A stretch of 36,550 nucleotides of DNA from Planctomyces sp. (GCA_043775215.1 JAYVSP010000179.1:1-36550); one strand, 5' to 3'. Positions 31,499-35,509 are shown, numbered from the stretch's first letter. Notes: generated by a model from the sequence alone, not told the origin. Numbers and translations: made by a program.

Positions 31499-33115
31499 GT
31501 GGCGAAGCAACTTCTGTTTGATGACCGAGCGCGGCTGAAATTGCAGCGCGGGGTGAAGCAGTTGGCCGATGTGGTCGCGGTCACGATGGGACCGACCGGC
31601 CGAAACGTGATCATCGACAAAAACTTTGGCAACCCGGTCGTCACCAAAGACGGCGTGACGGTCTCCAAAGAGGTCGAACTCGACGACCCGTATGAGAACA
31701 TGGGTGCCAAGCTGGTCAACGAGGTCGCGACCAAGACCAGCGACGTCGCCGGTGACGGCACCACCACCGCCACCGTGCTGGCGCGAGCCATCTACGACGA
31801 GGGGCTCCGCTCGGTCTCGATGGGTGCCAACCCGATGGTCGTGCGTCGCGGGATCGAAAAGGCCGTTGAGGCGGCGATCGCGCACCTCAAGTCGATGGTC
31901 AAGCCGGTCACCAGCAAGGCCGAGATCGCTCAGGTCGGGTCCATCTCGGCCAACAACGATAAAGAGATCGGCGACCTGATCGCCGATGCGATGGAGAAGG
32001 TCGGCCGCGACGGCGTGATCACCGTCGAGGAAGGTAAAGGCAACTCCACCAGCTTGAACTTTGCCGAGGGAATGCAGTTCGACAAGGGCTACATCAGTCC
32101 GTACTTCGTCACCAGCCCGACCGACATGAAGGTCATCCTCGAAGACTGCTTCATTCTGATGTTCGAGAAGAAAATCAGCAGCCTGCGGGACATGCTGCCG
32201 CTGCTGGAGAAGGTGGCGACGTCGGGCAAGCCGTTGCTGATCGTGGCGGAAGACGTCGATAGTGAGGCTCTGACCGCGCTGGTCGTCAACAAGCTGCGCG
32301 GCATCCTGCAAGTCGCGGCCGTGAAGGCTCCGGGCTTTGGCGATCGCCGCAAGACGATGCTCGGCGACATGGCCGTGCAAACCGGCGGCACGCTGATCTC
32401 CGAAGACCTCGGCATCACGCTCGAGAGCGTCGAGTTGAAGCAACTCGGCCGAGCCAAGAAGGTCGAGATCACCAAGGACAACTGCACGATCATCGACGGA
32501 GCCGGCGATCAGAAGCTGATCAAGTCTCGCGTCGATCAAATCCGCACGCAGATCGAAGGGACGAAGAGCGAATACGACCGCGAGAAATTCCAAGAGCGGC
32601 TGGCCAAGATGACCGGCGGCGTGGCGATCATCTCGGTGGGAGCCGCGACCGAAACCGAAATGAAGCAGACGAAAGCCCGCATGGAAGACGCACTCCACGC
32701 CACGCGAGCCTCGGTCGAGGAAGGTATCCTCCCCGGCGGCGGCGTGGCGCTGCTGCGGTGCATTGAAGTCATTCGCAAGGTGAAGACGAAGGGTGACGAG
32801 GAGATCGGCATCGAAATCGTCGCCCGTGCGTTGGAGGCTCCGATCCGTCAGATCGTGCAAAACTGCGGCGTGGATGGCAGCGTGGTCGCCGACGAAGTTC
32901 TGCAAAAAGACACGAACATCGGCTACAACGCCAACACCGGCGAGTACGTGGACATGTTCAAAGCCGGCATCATCGACCCGGCGAAGGTCGTGATCAGCGC
33001 GTTGTCCAACGCCGCGTCGATCGCCGCCCTGATGCTGACCACCCAAGTCTGCGTCACCCGCACCGACGACCTCGAAGGAGGCAAGAAAGCCAAGATCGAA
33101 GGAGCCGTCCGGTAA
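31499..33115 (+). CDS. groEL: chaperonin GroEL (copy 2), no GGM tail
   Basis: GTG 31499 preceded by aaaggagag gives [31 protein letters not shown] present. Ends ..[19 protein letters not shown]. Confidence 0.95.
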
Positions 33116-33157
33116 CCGTAGCGGCTCGCGTGCCGTTGAGCCAACTTGAAAAACACC

Positions 33158-33184
33158 GCGAGCCACCCGATGAGGGTGGCTCGC
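33158..33184 (+). terminator. groEL2 terminator hairpin
   Basis: gcgagccaccc-gatga-gggtggctcgc, 11-bp stem with a weak T-tract. A counterpart at 35423-35446 is followed by ttt. Confidence 0.6.
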
Positions 33185-33340
33185 CGCATTTAGATTGAAA
33201 AAGCCACTGATTGAAAGGCGGAATCGTTTTGAACAGAAATCGGGTATAGTATCCCGCGTTAAAGCGGGTCGGATCGCTCATCTTTCTCGATGCGGTCACC
33301 GCGTTGCAGGCCTGTCTTCCCACGAATGAAAAGTCATCCC

Positions 33341-34468
33341 ATGCTCACGCGATTTTACGTTGATAACTTCCGCGCCTTGGTAAACACCGACTTGAAGCTC
33401 GGACCACGAAGCCTGTTGATGGGATCGAATGGAACCGGCAAATCGACGTTCGGCGATGTGCTCGTTCGACTTCAATTGATGATGTTCGGTCAGGCCAAGA
33501 CGGATGATACATTCACGCCCGACACGCTCACGCGTTGGCAAAGCATCCCACAGCAACGGATCGAGATGGACGTCACGGGGCCGGAAGGTGCCTACCGCTA
33601 TGAGTTGGTCATTGACCACCACGAAGTTGGTTCTGCTAACGACCCACGAACTCGAATCCTGCGAGAGATTTTGACGCTGGACACTCAGCCGTTATTTCAT
33701 TTCGAAGATGGGCTAGTGCATCTTTTCCAGGATGATCACAGCCAAGGCCCGGTCTATCCTTTTGATTGCGGTCGTTCCGCTTTGGGAACCATCTCGCCGC
33801 GCCGCGATAATCAGAAGCTCACATGGTTCGTTCGTTGGTTTCAACGATTGACGGTCCTCAGACCGAACCCACCGCAGATGGTGGACCTCATCGAGCGGGA
33901 TGATTTTTTACTGTTCGCCGACGCCGCGAATTTCGGCGCTTGGTATCATCCTCTCAGTTCTGCCGACAAACGTCGTGACCGGGAGCTTCATGACGCCCTG
34001 ATTGACGTGCTGCCTGGGTTTGATGCGCTGAACTTTGAATACGCGGGTCCAAACCGCTGGCTGCTGCGCGCGGACTTTTCCCGCGCCGGCCAAAAATTGA
34101 TGCTCCGGTTCAGTGAATTGTCTGATGGTCAGCGTGCCCTGATCCTTCTGTACTGCGTGTTGTATTTCCAATTGCAAGACGGACGAACTGTTTTCTTGGA
34201 TGAGCCGGATAATTTTGTGTCGCTCGACGAAATTCAGCCGTGGCTGCTTTCGGCTGCGGATGTCGTAGACAGCGGGTCGGGTCAGTTGGTGCTGATCTCA
34301 CATCACCCTGAGATTTTCAATCAATGGGCGGTGAGTCATGGGTTGGTCGCGGAGCGCGATGGGTGCGGTCCGGTACGCATTCGAAAATTCAGCCCGACGC
34401 CGGGTGCTGTGTTGTCACCAGCCGAGACGGTCGCGAGGGGCTGGGCGAATGCCATCGCGGCCCCTTAG
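33341..34468 (+). CDS. ABC/SMC-like AAA_21-type ATPase
   Basis: N-terminus FYVDNFRAL. Walker A GSNGTGKST. ABC-signature-like LSDGQRAL. Walker B TVFLDEPDNF. H-loop LVLISHHPE. ATG 33326 and ORF start 33290 are alternative starts. Confidence 0.85.
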   Translation: MLTRFYVDNFRALVNTDLKLGPRSLLMGSNGTGKSTFGDVLVRLQLMMFGQAKTDDTFTPDTLTRWQSIPQQRIEMDVTGPEGAYRYELVIDHHEVGSANDPRTRILREILTLDTQPLFHFEDGLVHLFQDDHSQGPVYPFDCGRSALGTISPRRDNQKLTWFVRWFQRLTVLRPNPPQMVDLIERDDFLLFADAANFGAWYHPLSSADKRRDRELHDALIDVLPGFDALNFEYAGPNRWLLRADFSRAGQKLMLRFSELSDGQRALILLYCVLYFQLQDGRTVFLDEPDNFVSLDEIQPWLLSAADVVDSGSGQLVLISHHPEIFNQWAVSHGLVAERDGCGPVRIRKFSPTPGAVLSPAETVARGWANAIAAP

Positions 34469-34480
34469 GATCGCACATCA

Positions 34481-35032
34481 ATGAGCAATCGTTTTGCCGA
34501 AGTTGTCATCGTTGCCGAAGATGAGCGATCAGCCAACTTGTTGCGCCGGTACGTGCAGCGTGCCCTGCATCTCGGTAACCGGCGTATCCGACAGGAAATT
34601 TCGCCTTCGGCAAAAGGCGATGCCAAGCAATGGGTGATCCGCCAATACGCAGTTGAAGTGAAAGAGTTGCGAACGGTGCATCGCAAAACCGGATTGGTGG
34701 TTCACCTCGATGCTGACACCGACGAAGTTGCCGACCGTGCCAGACAATTGGCGACCGCTCTGAAAAATGATGACCAGGACGAGCGCGATGCCAATGAACG
34801 GATCAGCCATGCCATTCCCAGACGACAGACTGAAACGTGGCTGTGTGTGCTGGTGGGCGAAGATGTCGATGAGGAACAGGACTGCAAACGCGACCGCCGA
34901 CTGCCTGATTTCGATCGCGCCGTACCGCAAGCAGCACTCGCTTTGTATGAAGCGACACGGCCAAACGCACCGATACCAACTCTGCCTTCGCTCGCGACAG
35001 CAGTGCCTGAGCTACGACGTCTGGAGAGCTGA
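34481..35032 (+). CDS. small Toprim-like protein (RloB/DUF4435/OLD-nuclease-like partner of the ATPase)
   Basis: Acidic motifs in the Toprim order: VVIVAEDERSANLL, then LVVHLDADTDE (DxD), then RRQTETWLCVL (E-x-W). 12 nt after the ATPase stop. Assignment made by motif pattern only. Confidence 0.6.
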   Translation: MSNRFAEVVIVAEDERSANLLRRYVQRALHLGNRRIRQEISPSAKGDAKQWVIRQYAVEVKELRTVHRKTGLVVHLDADTDEVADRARQLATALKNDDQDERDANERISHAIPRRQTETWLCVLVGEDVDEEQDCKRDRRLPDFDRAVPQAALALYEATRPNAPIPTLPSLATAVPELRRLES

Positions 35033-35033
35033 A

Positions 35034-35285
35034 ATGTGGAGCGTCGCCGCAGCATCCGACTTCGACACTCAACTTGTTCGAGGCATTCAAACGGCCTTGC
35101 GCAAAGCTCGCGGCTTGGGCTATCACGTCGAGACGATGGACGTCACGGCCTCCGTGTCTGAGGGAGTCTGCAACATTCACTTCTCCGCGATTCCCGCTCC
35201 CGGCACGATTCAGACCGGCAGCGATCTGACAGTTGCCGTCAACTCGGACACTGACGAAGTCATCGGATTCGAGCGAGGCCAATAA
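35034..35285 (+). CDS. hypothetical 83-aa protein, third gene of the cassette
   Basis: ATG 35034 lies 1 nt after the stop of the upstream gene. Protein-like composition. The upstream part of ORF 34767.. overlaps the Toprim-like gene and was discarded. Confidence 0.45.
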   Translation: MWSVAAASDFDTQLVRGIQTALRKARGLGYHVETMDVTASVSEGVCNIHFSAIPAPGTIQTGSDLTVAVNSDTDEVIGFERGQ

Positions 35286-35327
35286 GTTGGTGAGGGGATT
35301 CAGTCATGTTCATTTTCGATCCGCAAC

Positions 35328-35384
35328 CGTGCCGACGACCTCGAAGGCGGCAAGAAAGCCAAGATCGAAGGAGCGGTGCGGTAA
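35328..35384 (+). pseudogene. relic of a groEL 3' end (last ~18 codons + stop)
   Basis: Reads [18 protein letters not shown]-stop in frame, against [18 protein letters not shown]-stop at the real groEL2 end. No start codon. An in-frame stop lies at 35283. Confidence 0.7.
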
Positions 35385-35509
35385 CGCGGCTCGCGTGCCG
35401 TCGAGCAAAGTTTGAAACGCAGCGAGCCACCTGAGAAGGTGGCTCGTTTCGTATCGGAGTAAGCGCCATCAGACAGCCGGTGTCCGCATTGGACAAGAGG
35501 TACGATCAA

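What the first reader, a model, noticed from the sequence alone, without database searches (positions are those of the whole stretch)
33062..35447. Three-gene cassette inserted at the 3' end of groEL2, bracketed by direct repeats that duplicate the last groEL codons and the terminator
The segment 33062-33184 (end of groEL2, stop codon, terminator hairpin) recurs at 35331-35446. The second copy still reads [17 protein letters not shown]-stop in the groEL frame. Within the 17 shared codons the only differences (gga/ggc, gcc/gcg, gtc/gtg) are synonymous. Both copies keep a terminator hairpin built from slightly different sequence (gcgagccaccc/gggtggctcgc versus cgagccacc/ggtggctcg). Copy 2 has no start codon and follows an in-frame stop, so it is a relic. 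Synonymous-only divergence implies both copies evolved as functional groEL ends in different lineages. That suggests the ~2.15 kb between them arrived by integration or recombination at the groEL 3' end and brought a replacement gene end, as tRNA/tmRNA-targeting islands do. No integrase, transposase or recombinase lies between the repeats, so the mobilisation mechanism is unexplained.
Basis: partly seen in the sequence, partly recalled or inferred. Interest (0 to 1): 0.8.

Follow-up and report, generated by a model that had tools for sequence, protein, structure and literature searches.

The report
Displaced groEL2 end marks cassette insertion
A planctomycete chaperonin gene (groEL2) carries a second-hand 3' end that arrived with a small anti-phage-type gene cassette, while its original end and terminator sit 2.3 kb downstream as a relic; this is a readable scar of how a defence-gene hot spot between two chaperone operons was built without any visible integrase.

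Summary
The segment 33055-33184 (last 17 groEL2 codons, 3' UTR, hairpin) recurs at 35324-35454 at about 87% identity, and it is not a dispersed element.

- **Which copy is native:** copy 2 is probably the lineage's native groEL2 end. It is 98% identical to the genuine groEL2 UTR/terminator of the closest sister contig (L103) and keeps the family-wide terminator tail. Copy 1's UTR is only 76% identical to L103 and lacks that tail.
- **What came in:** the imported block runs from about 33079 to about 35330 and is composite. It holds a portable two-gene module (ABC-type ATPase plus a Toprim-like 183-aa protein) and p83, a small gene that belongs to this locus in relatives.
- **The site:** the insertion lies in the groEL2-dnaJ spacer. 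That spacer is about 180 nt and empty in 71 of about 80 planctomycete species, but is filled with defence-type genes in this clade.
- **Mechanism:** there is no integrase in the window. The most likely route is a single crossover in the 16-nt identical block, carried out by host recombination on DNA from a relative. An integrase acting in trans remains the main rival.

This is a new example of known kinds of event and is moderately interesting.

The parts
31499..33115 (+). groEL2. The likely start is the GTG at 31499, which follows an AAGGAG Shine-Dalgarno sequence; the mechanical ORF starts at 31463. Up to about 33078 the gene is native DNA.
   Evidence: The body is 88-92% identical to relatives. 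The stretch 32977-33061 has 1 mismatch to L103, against 3-8 mismatches to other relatives.
33055..33184 (+). Repeat copy 1: the functional groEL2 tail (33062-33115), the 3' UTR (33116-33157) and the hairpin (33158-33184). From 33079 rightwards it is of the imported type, and it lacks the T-rich terminator tail.
33063..33078 (+). The 16-nt block CCGACGACCTCGAAGG, identical in both copies (its partner is 35332-35347). This is the inferred crossover interval: every diagnostic site to its right is donor-type in copy 1 and native-type in copy 2.
   Evidence: The crossover location is an inference.
33185..33340 (+). Leader of the cassette. It has no homology to any relative's groEL2 downstream region or to the flanks of other copies of the module.
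33341..34468 (+). ABC/AAA_21-type ATPase, the first gene of the portable two-gene module.
   Evidence: Pfam AAA_21 at 1.9e-12. PADLOC AbiLi at 1.8e-16, AriA at 1.4e-14 and HEC-01A at 4e-14. About 72% nucleotide identity to the module copies in L093, L094, L096 and L098.
34481..35032 (+). p183, the Toprim-like partner and second gene of the module. It belongs to a family of about 60 unannotated planctomycete proteins.
   Evidence: invariant E13, D14, D77-x-D79 and E118. AF2 model with pLDDT 91.7. The best PDB fold match is the OLD nuclease Toprim region 6nk8, which is weak (E = 0.013, TM 0.38). Faint PADLOC HEC-01B hit at 8e-4.
35034..35285 (+). p83, a small alpha+beta protein with a PepSY-like fold. 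It is a resident of the groEL2-dnaJ interval in relatives and is usually translationally coupled to a JAB/DUF4329-like gene. In the window it shows foreign-level divergence from the sister contig.
   Evidence: (88.5% to L103).
35286..35330 (+). Junction spacer. The first 20 nt or so resemble the p82-downstream spacer of L083, though not significantly on their own. The end of the foreign DNA lies within 35309-35330.
35324..35462 (+). Repeat copy 2: the displaced native groEL2 end. It comprises the untranslated 17-codon relic (35331-35384), the UTR, the hairpin (about 35421-35448) and the native T-rich tail TTTCGTATCGGAG. It probably now terminates transcription of the cassette.
   Evidence: (98% to the genuine groEL2 UTR/terminator of L103).
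35510..36181 (+). HEPN-like (RiboL-PSP-HEPN/DUF4145) gene to the right of the relic. It is itself accessory: its best homologs are at most 60% identical and occur in several phyla.
36194..36517 (+). p107, a homolog (72% amino-acid identity) of the gene that directly follows the groEL2 terminator in L101. It supports the view that copy 2 and its right flank are the original groEL2 neighbourhood.

Best explanation
The groEL2-dnaJ spacer, which is normally about 180 nt and empty, has become a hot spot for defence-type genes in this planctomycete clade.

In the window's lineage, a stretch of DNA from a related planctomycete recombined into the resident groEL2 by a single reciprocal (Campbell-type, or 'ends-in') crossover. 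The stretch comprised that relative's own groEL2 end, 3' UTR and hairpin, followed by an ATPase/Toprim-like defence pair and p83. The crossover fell inside the 16-nt identical block at codons -17 to -12.

As a result:
- groEL2 now finishes with the donor's synonymous end (copy 1).
- The cassette follows it.
- The original end, UTR and terminator (copy 2) were pushed 2.27 kb downstream. The coding part there is dead, but the terminator still closes the cassette's transcription unit.

No recombinase travels with the cassette. The imported end looks like an ordinary chromosomal groEL2 end of a relative, so the most likely catalyst is the host's homologous recombination machinery rather than a dedicated integrase.

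**Shown:** the repeat is real, copy 1 and copy 2 belong to different lineages, the cargo is composite, and the site is empty in most species.

**Inferred:** the direction of the event (copy 2 native, probability about 0.7), the crossover position, and the enzymology (probability about 0.4).
For: 1. The UTR plus terminator of copy 2 is 98% identical to the genuine groEL2 UTR/terminator of L103. Copy 1 is only 76% identical to it. The window's groEL2 body is closest to L103 (1 mismatch in 85 nt, against 3-8 for others), and the two share the otherwise unique T at 33016.
2. All 13 close relatives and copy 2 have the stem followed by TTTCGT; copy 1 does not.
3. p83 is 88.5% identical to L103's p82, a foreign-level divergence next to native DNA at 98%.
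4. The foreign block's left limit (33062-33079) and right limit (35286-35348) coincide with the left edges of the two repeat copies. A single crossover predicts this.
5. Copy 1's UTR is 84% identical to the chromosomal groEL2 UTR of the L085 group, as close as true orthologs are to one another, so it came from a chromosome and not from a long-evolving attP.
6. p107, to the right of copy 2, is the homolog of the gene that directly follows the groEL2 terminator in L101.
7. dnaJ follows groEL2 directly in 71 of about 80 species, with a median gap of 184 nt. Close relatives carry unrelated genes there: HNH-like plus PKS, TIR, JAB plus p82, and a Y1 transposase.
8. The window contains no integrase or transposase, and viral contigs contain no mimic of the groEL tail.
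9. The cassette's composition is ordinary for this genome, which fits a related donor.
Against: - The sister lineage is known from only 139 nt of groEL2 plus the UTR, so the polarity rests on a few sites.
- The inferred crossover lies in the leftmost 24 nt or so of about 131 nt of homology, in a block of only 16 identical bases. That is short for RecA. The prior for this position is about 0.18 if crossovers are uniform along the homology, and it is what a site-specific enzyme would produce.
- L103 also has a second UTR/terminator copy after p82, which could mean the duplication is older than the cassette.
- No circular form, donor haplotype (groEL2-module-p83) or same-species empty allele was found.
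- The window ends 1.1 kb after copy 2, so an integrase or further repeat copies downstream cannot be excluded.
Confidence: 0.45

Rival explanations
1. Site-specific integration. On this view the block between the repeats is a small satellite island whose attP carries a mimic of the groEL2 end. It was inserted by a tyrosine or serine integrase that is encoded elsewhere or has since been lost, in the way staphylococcal PICIs insert at the groEL 3' end.
For: The foreign block starts exactly at the left edge of the repeat, in a perfectly identical 16-nt block, and homology runs only rightwards through the gene end. Integrase-driven islands do use an att site overlapping the last 18 bp of groEL in staphylococci (PMC8125051). 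L103 shows a second occupancy at almost the same place.
Against: No integrase lies in the cassette or in the 36.5-kb window. None of about 90 other groEL2 ends shows a duplicate. The boundary of the L103 repeat is different: it starts after the stop codon. The 'mimic' includes 70 nt of non-coding UTR that is as similar to real chromosomal orthologs as those orthologs are to each other. The module has no conserved att-like flanks in four other contexts. Viral contigs contain no groEL tail.
Confidence: 0.2
2. The opposite polarity. On this view copy 1, the module and p83 are native to this lineage. Copy 2, the HEPN gene and p107 were imported from an L103-like relative by homology-facilitated illegitimate recombination. 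The import was anchored on the right in dnaJ, and its left end happened to break at groEL2 codon -17 and joined illegitimately just after p83.
For: p83 lies downstream of groEL2 in relatives (L083, L103, L101), so the order groEL2...p83 looks native. The junction at 35309-35330 has no homology, and the spacer before it may keep the start of the gene that follows p82 in L083. The HEPN gene is clearly accessory. Displacement arrays of this kind are described for Rhs/T6SS loci (PMC5361080).
Against: The groEL2 body groups with L103 and therefore with copy 2, not with copy 1. Copy 1's terminator is truncated, unlike every native one. p83 is only 88.5% identical to L103's p82 although the native DNA is about 98% identical. 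p107, which is native-type next to the groEL2 terminator in L101, sits on the copy 2 side.
Confidence: 0.15
3. Two steps. An older tandem duplication created groEL2-end/terminator ... p83 ... end/terminator in the common ancestor of the window and L103. Later, the left unit (tail, UTR, JAB) was swapped for a donor's tail, UTR and module by ordinary double-crossover recombination.
For: L103 has both UTR/terminator copies, both of the native type and 95% identical to each other, with JAB plus p82 between them. A tandem duplication creates exactly one novel junction, namely downstream of p83 joined to groEL2 codon -17.
Against: The right crossover must lie between the end of p83 and 35348, so the donor would need the same relic. 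That would make the relic older than about 12% divergence, yet it has no non-synonymous change in 16 codons. The second copy in L103 lacks the coding tail, and its first copy has a 5-nt deletion that the second lacks, so the two are not simple duplicates.
Confidence: 0.15
4. Assembly chimera that joins two co-occurring strains at the groEL2 tail.
For: The source may be a metagenome. Related strains co-occur in SRR23617269, as shown by unitig breaks exactly at the polymorphic sites 33079 and 35378. The junction at 35133-35347 is not covered by the independent contigs.
Against: The longest exact match between the copies is 26 nt, and the junction itself has no shared k-mer. An independent assembly (L103, k141) shows the same kind of second copy after p82.
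Confidence: 0.03

Closest known systems
Staphylococcal phage-inducible chromosomal islands (SaPI/SeCI, e.g. SeCISE48) integrated at the 3' end of groEL
   Same: The same target gene end is used. The insertion leaves groEL intact because the incoming DNA supplies the last codons, and direct repeats flank the insert (PMC8125051).
   Different: Those islands carry their own integrase and excisionase, are about 15 kb long, and use an 18-bp att site. Here there is no integrase, the insert is 2.1 kb, and the repeat is 125-130 nt and 13% diverged, extending through the UTR and terminator.
Displacement ('orphan 3' end') arrays at Rhs, CDI and T6SS effector loci, attributed to homologous or homology-facilitated illegitimate recombination
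   Same: A conserved upstream gene serves as the anchor. The incoming DNA brings a new 3' end plus cargo, and the old 3' end is shifted downstream and kept as a relic. No mobile-element genes are involved (PMC5361080).
   Different: In those loci the exchanged 3' ends encode different toxins, and selection acts on that difference. Here the two ends encode the same peptide, so the duplication is a by-product of the event.
Core defence hotspots flanked by conserved genes (cDHS1/2 of Pseudomonas aeruginosa)
   Same: Defence content varies between fixed core flanks without obvious mobile-element genes. How such sites are built is an open question (PMC10250203).
   Different: The flanks here are groEL2 and dnaJ-grpE in Planctomycetaceae. 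The hot spot exists only in one clade, and a recombination scar has been preserved.
Two-gene ABC-ATPase plus Toprim defence systems (PARIS AriA/AriB, AbiL, OLD-family, PADLOC candidate HEC-01)
   Same: The module pairs an AAA_21/AAA_15 ATPase with a small partner that has an E...DxD Toprim-like site. The genes overlap or abut, and the pair sits in different neighbourhoods in different genomes.
   Different: p183 matches no Pfam family and only faintly matches HEC-01B, and its fold match to the OLD Toprim region is weak. Defence activity has not been tested.

Membership tests
Integrase-mediated island at the 3' end of a gene (PICI/SaPI-like, tRNA/tmRNA-island-like) | Direct repeats (attL/attR) that duplicate the target gene end and flank the insert | tested here: met
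   33055-33184 versus 35324-35454.
Integrase-mediated island at the 3' end of a gene (PICI/SaPI-like, tRNA/tmRNA-island-like) | An integrase or recombinase gene inside the element, next to an att site | tested here: not met
   No recombinase domain in any ORF between the repeats or in the whole window.
Integrase-mediated island at the 3' end of a gene (PICI/SaPI-like, tRNA/tmRNA-island-like) | The same att core is used recurrently in independent strains or elements | tested here: inconclusive
   None of 80 species loci and none of 10 metagenome loci has a duplicate. L103 has a second UTR/terminator copy, but with a different left boundary.
Integrase-mediated island at the 3' end of a gene (PICI/SaPI-like, tRNA/tmRNA-island-like) | An excised circular form and an empty attB in the population | not testable with these tools
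   This needs read-level data or PCR. The Logan contigs are unitigs that break at strain polymorphisms.
Anchored-recombination displacement (Rhs/CDI/T6SS-type orphan arrays; HFIR or Campbell-type homologous insertion) | A conserved gene upstream provides the homology, and the displaced old 3' end is retained downstream | tested here: met
   Copy 2 is the native end. The groEL2 tail block is invariant across 15 sequences.
Anchored-recombination displacement (Rhs/CDI/T6SS-type orphan arrays; HFIR or Campbell-type homologous insertion) | The incoming end is orthologous chromosomal DNA of a relative, with divergence comparable to that between species | tested here: met
   Copy 1's UTR is 84% identical to that of L085, and true orthologs are 78-92% identical to one another. 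p83 is 85-88% identical to its homologs in relatives.
Anchored-recombination displacement (Rhs/CDI/T6SS-type orphan arrays; HFIR or Campbell-type homologous insertion) | A distal junction without homology (illegitimate), or alternatively a crossover confined to the shared segment | tested here: inconclusive
   The junction at 35309-35330 shows no homology. Its similarity to L083's spacer is not significant. The crossover is inferred to lie within 33063-33078.
Core defence hotspot | Fixed conserved flanking genes with variable, defence-enriched content between them in close relatives | tested here: met
   groEL2 and dnaJ are adjacent in 71 of about 80 loci. The contents seen in this clade are the ATPase/Toprim-like pair, HEPN, TIR, an HNH/mREase-like gene, JAB plus p82, and a Y1 transposase. 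The right flank (dnaJ) lies beyond the end of the window.
ABC-ATPase plus Toprim defence pair (PARIS / AbiL / OLD-like / HEC-01) | An AAA_21/AAA_15 ABC-type ATPase | tested here: met
   AAA_21 at 1.9e-12, above the Pfam cut-off; AbiLi, AriA and HEC-01A profiles at 1e-14 to 1e-16.
ABC-ATPase plus Toprim defence pair (PARIS / AbiL / OLD-like / HEC-01) | A partner with a Toprim domain (DUF4435, RloB or OLD C-terminal region) | tested here: inconclusive
   No Pfam hit. HEC-01B at 8e-4. The invariant residues E13, D14 and D77xD79 and the top fold hit to OLD Toprim 6nk8, with TM of only 0.38, are suggestive but not conclusive.
ABC-ATPase plus Toprim defence pair (PARIS / AbiL / OLD-like / HEC-01) | Protection against phage | not testable with these tools
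   This requires an experiment.

The most novel reading that the evidence does not exclude
Cassettes in these planctomycetes may spread as integrase-free 'homology hitch-hikers'. Once a cassette is bracketed by two copies of a highly conserved host segment (here the groEL2 tail plus terminator), host recombination could loop it out as a circle and re-insert it into any relative at the same conserved segment. Each such event would regenerate the bracket and build arrays of cassettes separated by diverged copies of host sequence.

Three observations would fit this reading:
- The window itself.
- L103, where JAB plus p82 lie between two groEL2 UTR/terminator copies.
- L094, where the same ATPase/p183 module lies between copies of an unrelated local repeat of about 300 nt, present three times at 85-94% identity.
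Probability: 0.12. Interest if true: 0.7.

Novelty: new member of a known kind. Interest (0 to 1): 0.42.

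Why it matters
How defence hot spots between core genes are filled when no mobile-element genes are visible is an acknowledged open question (PMC10250203). 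Exchange by double crossover in the conserved flanks leaves no trace. Here a trace survives, in the form of the displaced native gene end. It shows that one of the most conserved bacterial genes served as the recombination anchor, and that the donor was a related chromosome.

The case also defines a clade-specific hot spot (groEL2-dnaJ) in a poorly studied phylum. It identifies an unannotated ATPase/Toprim-like module family and a JAB/PepSY-like pair as candidates for defence or toxin-immunity functions. The truncated terminator in copy 1 additionally raises the testable possibility that the cassette is co-transcribed with a heat-shock gene.

Tried and rejected
1. **Dispersed repeat.** Rejected. 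The hairpin/UTR unit occurs only at groEL2 ends in 1.3 Mb of loci.
2. **Recent in-situ duplication.** Rejected. The copies are more diverged from each other (78%) than from orthologs in other species (82-85%).
3. **Donor tract inside the groEL2 body.** A scan of window-private sites found no contiguous tract. The excess of 3/37 versus 2/219 private sites (p = 0.02) is weakened because two of the three sites are hypervariable and one is shared with L103.
4. **Empty-site allele from Logan unitig ends.** Rejected. The breaks at 33049 and 35348 are k-1 bases before polymorphic sites shared with other species, not junctions.
5. **attP mimic in viral contigs.** None found.
6. **Conserved att-like ends of the module.** Absent in five contexts. 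Flanking repeats are absent in L093, L096 and L098.
7. **Compositional foreignness.** Not detected.
8. **HEPN gene homologs next to a groEL2 as an empty-site proxy.** None is closer than 60% identity.
9. **tRNA, tmRNA or known RNA at the site.** None.
10. **Exact-protein look-ups for GroEL2 and p83.** Not on record.
11. **Integron-like attC reading of the hairpin.** Not pursued. There is no integron integrase, and the hairpin is simply the family-wide groEL2 terminator.

Full report
**Observation.** The window carries groEL1 (29146-30924), groES (31071-31361) and groEL2 (31499-33115), followed by three small genes and then a second copy of the groEL2 end. Alignment and repeat finding confirm that 33055-33184 recurs at 35324-35454. 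The pair has a 62-nt core at 90% identity, further blocks at 84%, two small indels and a hairpin in each copy. Copy 2 reads [17 protein letters not shown]-stop in frame. Its three internal differences from copy 1 are synonymous. It has no start codon, and it lies 16 codons after the in-frame stop of the 83-aa gene. No other repeat of this kind exists in the region, apart from the groEL1/groEL2 paralogy.

**What lies between and beside the copies.**
- 33341-34468 encodes an AAA_21/ABC-type ATPase that matches the AbiLi, AriA and HEC-01A defence profiles.
- 34481-35032 (p183) has no Pfam domain. It belongs to a compact family of about 60 planctomycete proteins with invariant E13-D14, D77-x-D79 and E118. 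A confident model (pLDDT 91.7) has the Toprim region of an OLD nuclease as its best PDB match, but the match is weak (6nk8, E = 0.013, TM 0.38).
- 35034-35285 (p83) belongs to a tight family of 82-aa proteins with a PepSY-like helix-plus-sheet fold. This match is also weak.
- To the right of copy 2 lie a HEPN-like gene (35510-36181) and p107 (36194-36517).
- The other 33 kb of the window are ordinary chromosomal genes without any integrase or transposase. There is no tRNA, tmRNA or Rfam family.

**The cassette is composite.** DNA homology between the window and four other loci that carry p183 homologs covers exactly 33339-35032, which is the ATPase plus p183 only. Those copies sit in unrelated neighbourhoods: next to a TIR protein, a Dam methylase with an Xre antitoxin, a peptidase, and an RND pump. 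None has groEL, p83 or an integrase nearby, and they share no flanking motif.

By contrast, p83 is a resident of the groEL2-downstream region in relatives:
- L083: groEL2 end, terminator, JAB-like gene, p82, zinc-ribbon ORF.
- L103: groEL2 end, terminator, JAB/DUF4329 gene, p82, and further elements.
- L101/L102: groEL1, groES, groEL2, p132, intervening DNA, 93-aa gene, 167-aa gene, p82, 77-aa gene, dnaJ, grpE.
- L100: 90-aa gene, 167-aa gene, p83, intervening genes, dnaJ, grpE.

**The site.** In 71 of about 80 planctomycete species-representative loci, dnaJ follows groEL2 on the same strand after a median of 184 nt (range 32-1745). The empty site is therefore the rule. Only the window's immediate clade has filled the spacer, and each lineage has done so differently:
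- L002 has an HNH/type-IV-restriction-like gene and a 2450-aa PKS.
- L004 has unknown ORFs.
- L085 has a Y1 (IS200-like) transposase.
- L103 has a TIR gene.
- The window has the ATPase/Toprim-like pair and a HEPN gene.

This is a clade-specific defence hot spot bounded by two chaperone operons.

**Which copy is native.** All 13 close relatives (3 genomes and 10 metagenome contigs retrieved with the conserved tail 23-mer) have one groEL2 end, and its hairpin is followed by TTTCGT. Copy 2 has this tail, and 22 nt are identical to L002. Copy 1 instead continues as CCGCATTTAG.

The two copies' UTRs are 78% identical to each other, yet each is 82-85% identical to the UTR of the L085 group. They therefore behave like orthologs from different lineages, not like a recent duplication.

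The decisive comparison is with L103:
- Its genuine groEL2 UTR/terminator is 98% identical to copy 2, including a compensatory C>T/G>A change in the stem. It is only 76% identical to copy 1.
- The window's groEL2 body (32977-33061) has 1 mismatch to L103, against 3-8 to the others. The two share the otherwise unique T at 33016.
- p83 is only 88.5% identical to L103's p82.

The body and copy 2 therefore belong together. The stretch from about 33079 through p83 shows foreign-level divergence. p107, on the copy 2 side, is the homolog of the gene that follows the groEL2 terminator in L101, which fits the same picture. I put the probability that copy 2 is the displaced native end at about 0.7. The caveat is that L103 offers only 139 nt of groEL2.

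**Mechanism.** The left limit of the foreign block (33062-33079) and its right limit (35286-35348) coincide with the left edges of the two copies. One reciprocal crossover between a resident groEL2 end and an incoming molecule carrying a homologous end would produce this pattern. All diagnostic sites to the right of the 16-nt identical block (33063-33078 and 35332-35347) are donor-type in copy 1 and native-type in copy 2.

The imported end includes 70 nt of non-coding UTR that is as similar to chromosomal orthologs as those orthologs are to one another. The cassette's composition is ordinary for this genome, and no recombinase is present. I therefore favour host homologous recombination on DNA from a related chromosome, of the Campbell or 'ends-in' type.

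The main rival is an integrase acting in trans. It would explain the crossover at the extreme edge of the homology in only 16 identical bases, and it has a direct precedent in staphylococcal PICIs at the groEL 3' end (PMC8125051). Three points count against it:
- There is no integrase.
- None of about 90 other groEL2 ends shows a duplicate.
- The boundary in L103 is different.

Two further rivals cannot be excluded:
- The opposite polarity, in which the right-hand part was imported by homology-facilitated illegitimate recombination anchored in dnaJ, as in the displacement arrays of PMC5361080.
- An older duplication followed by allelic replacement.

The second is raised by L103, which has a second UTR/terminator copy (95% identical to its first, without groEL codons) after p82, preceded by a palindromic GATTTGAAAT-repeat element.

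**A possibly related pattern.** In L094/L095 the same module lies between copies of an unrelated local repeat of about 300 nt. That repeat is present three times (about 5555-5897, 6444-6726 and 8613-8975) at 85-94% identity and also separates an Xre antitoxin gene. Whether this reflects the same process is unknown. L093, L096 and L098 show no flanking repeats.

**Verdict.** Corrections are needed on the unity of the cassette and on its island-like nature. The finding is a new example of known phenomena, namely gene-end-displacing insertion and a core-flanked defence hot spot. Its value is that it preserves a recombination scar. The mobilisation mechanism remains inferred.

Noticed in passing
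window 30927-31045; L103 945-1030; L101 9227-9259: Tandem 7-mer repeats (CCAAATC / GATTTGA type) fill the groEL1-groES spacer. Similar GATTTGAAAT repeats occur inside a perfect 23-nt-arm palindrome after p82 in L103, and in the dnaJ-grpE spacer of L101. This may be a repeat element or regulatory motif specific to heat-shock gene spacers.
   Followed up: partly
window 31454-31486; L004 12388-12420; L085 5181-5264; L088, L090: A 30-nt element that includes the Shine-Dalgarno region just upstream of groEL2 (GTGCTGACACACCGCACTCCAAAGGAG) recurs at 97-100% identity as inverted pairs near dnaJ/grpE in relatives. It occurs only once in the window. It resembles a REP element, and L085 carries a Y1 (IS200/RAYT-like) transposase gene in its groEL2-dnaJ spacer.
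   Followed up: partly
window 28838-29030: Upstream of groEL1 there is a perfect 33-nt direct repeat (28848-28880 and 28930-28962) nested within 43-nt inverted arms (28838-28880 and 28988-29030, 86% complementary). This could be a regulatory structure or a small inserted element.
   Followed up: no
groEL2 terminators in L013, L016, L023, L026, L029, L042, L046, L048, L069, L077 and the window: The sequence of the groEL2 terminator hairpin (G[GA]GCCACC-loop-GGTGGC[CT]CGTTT) is conserved across family-level distances where the surrounding UTR is not. In the native form an upstream A-tract pairs with the T-tail, extending the stem.
   Followed up: partly
window 33123-33140 and 35385-35405 versus 32693-32713: The conserved 3' UTR block GCGGCTCGCGTGCCGT is 86-89% complementary to a stretch inside the groEL2 coding region about 410 nt upstream. 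This could be chance or a long-range mRNA pairing (I7 and I10).
   Followed up: no
window 33158-33200: Copy 1's hairpin has lost the downstream T-tract on the + strand, so transcription from groEL2 may read through into the defence module. On the - strand the same hairpin scores as a terminator.
   Followed up: no
L083 169-869; L103 244-944; L101 6185-7249: A JAB/DUF4329 metallopeptidase-like gene (HTHPN motif) is translationally coupled (ATGA overlap) to the PepSY-like p82. In some lineages a 93-aa gene precedes the pair. This could be a peptidase-inhibitor or toxin-immunity pair.
   Followed up: partly
L094 5555-5897, 6444-6726, 8613-8975: Three copies of a repeat of about 300 nt (85-94% identity) separate an Xre-type antitoxin gene from the ATPase/p183 module in a Pirellulales MAG, giving a cassette-array-like layout of unknown origin.
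   Followed up: partly
window 29146-30924: GroEL1 ends in a His/Asp-rich stretch followed by a Gly-Met tail ([27 protein letters not shown]). GroEL2 instead ends in the charged tail [16 protein letters not shown].
   Followed up: no
window 24470-26784 (- strand): A 520-aa protein with a weak AAA_16 (STAND-like) ATPase hit sits next to a 242-aa protein with no known domain. This may be another accessory or defence-type pair.
   Followed up: no
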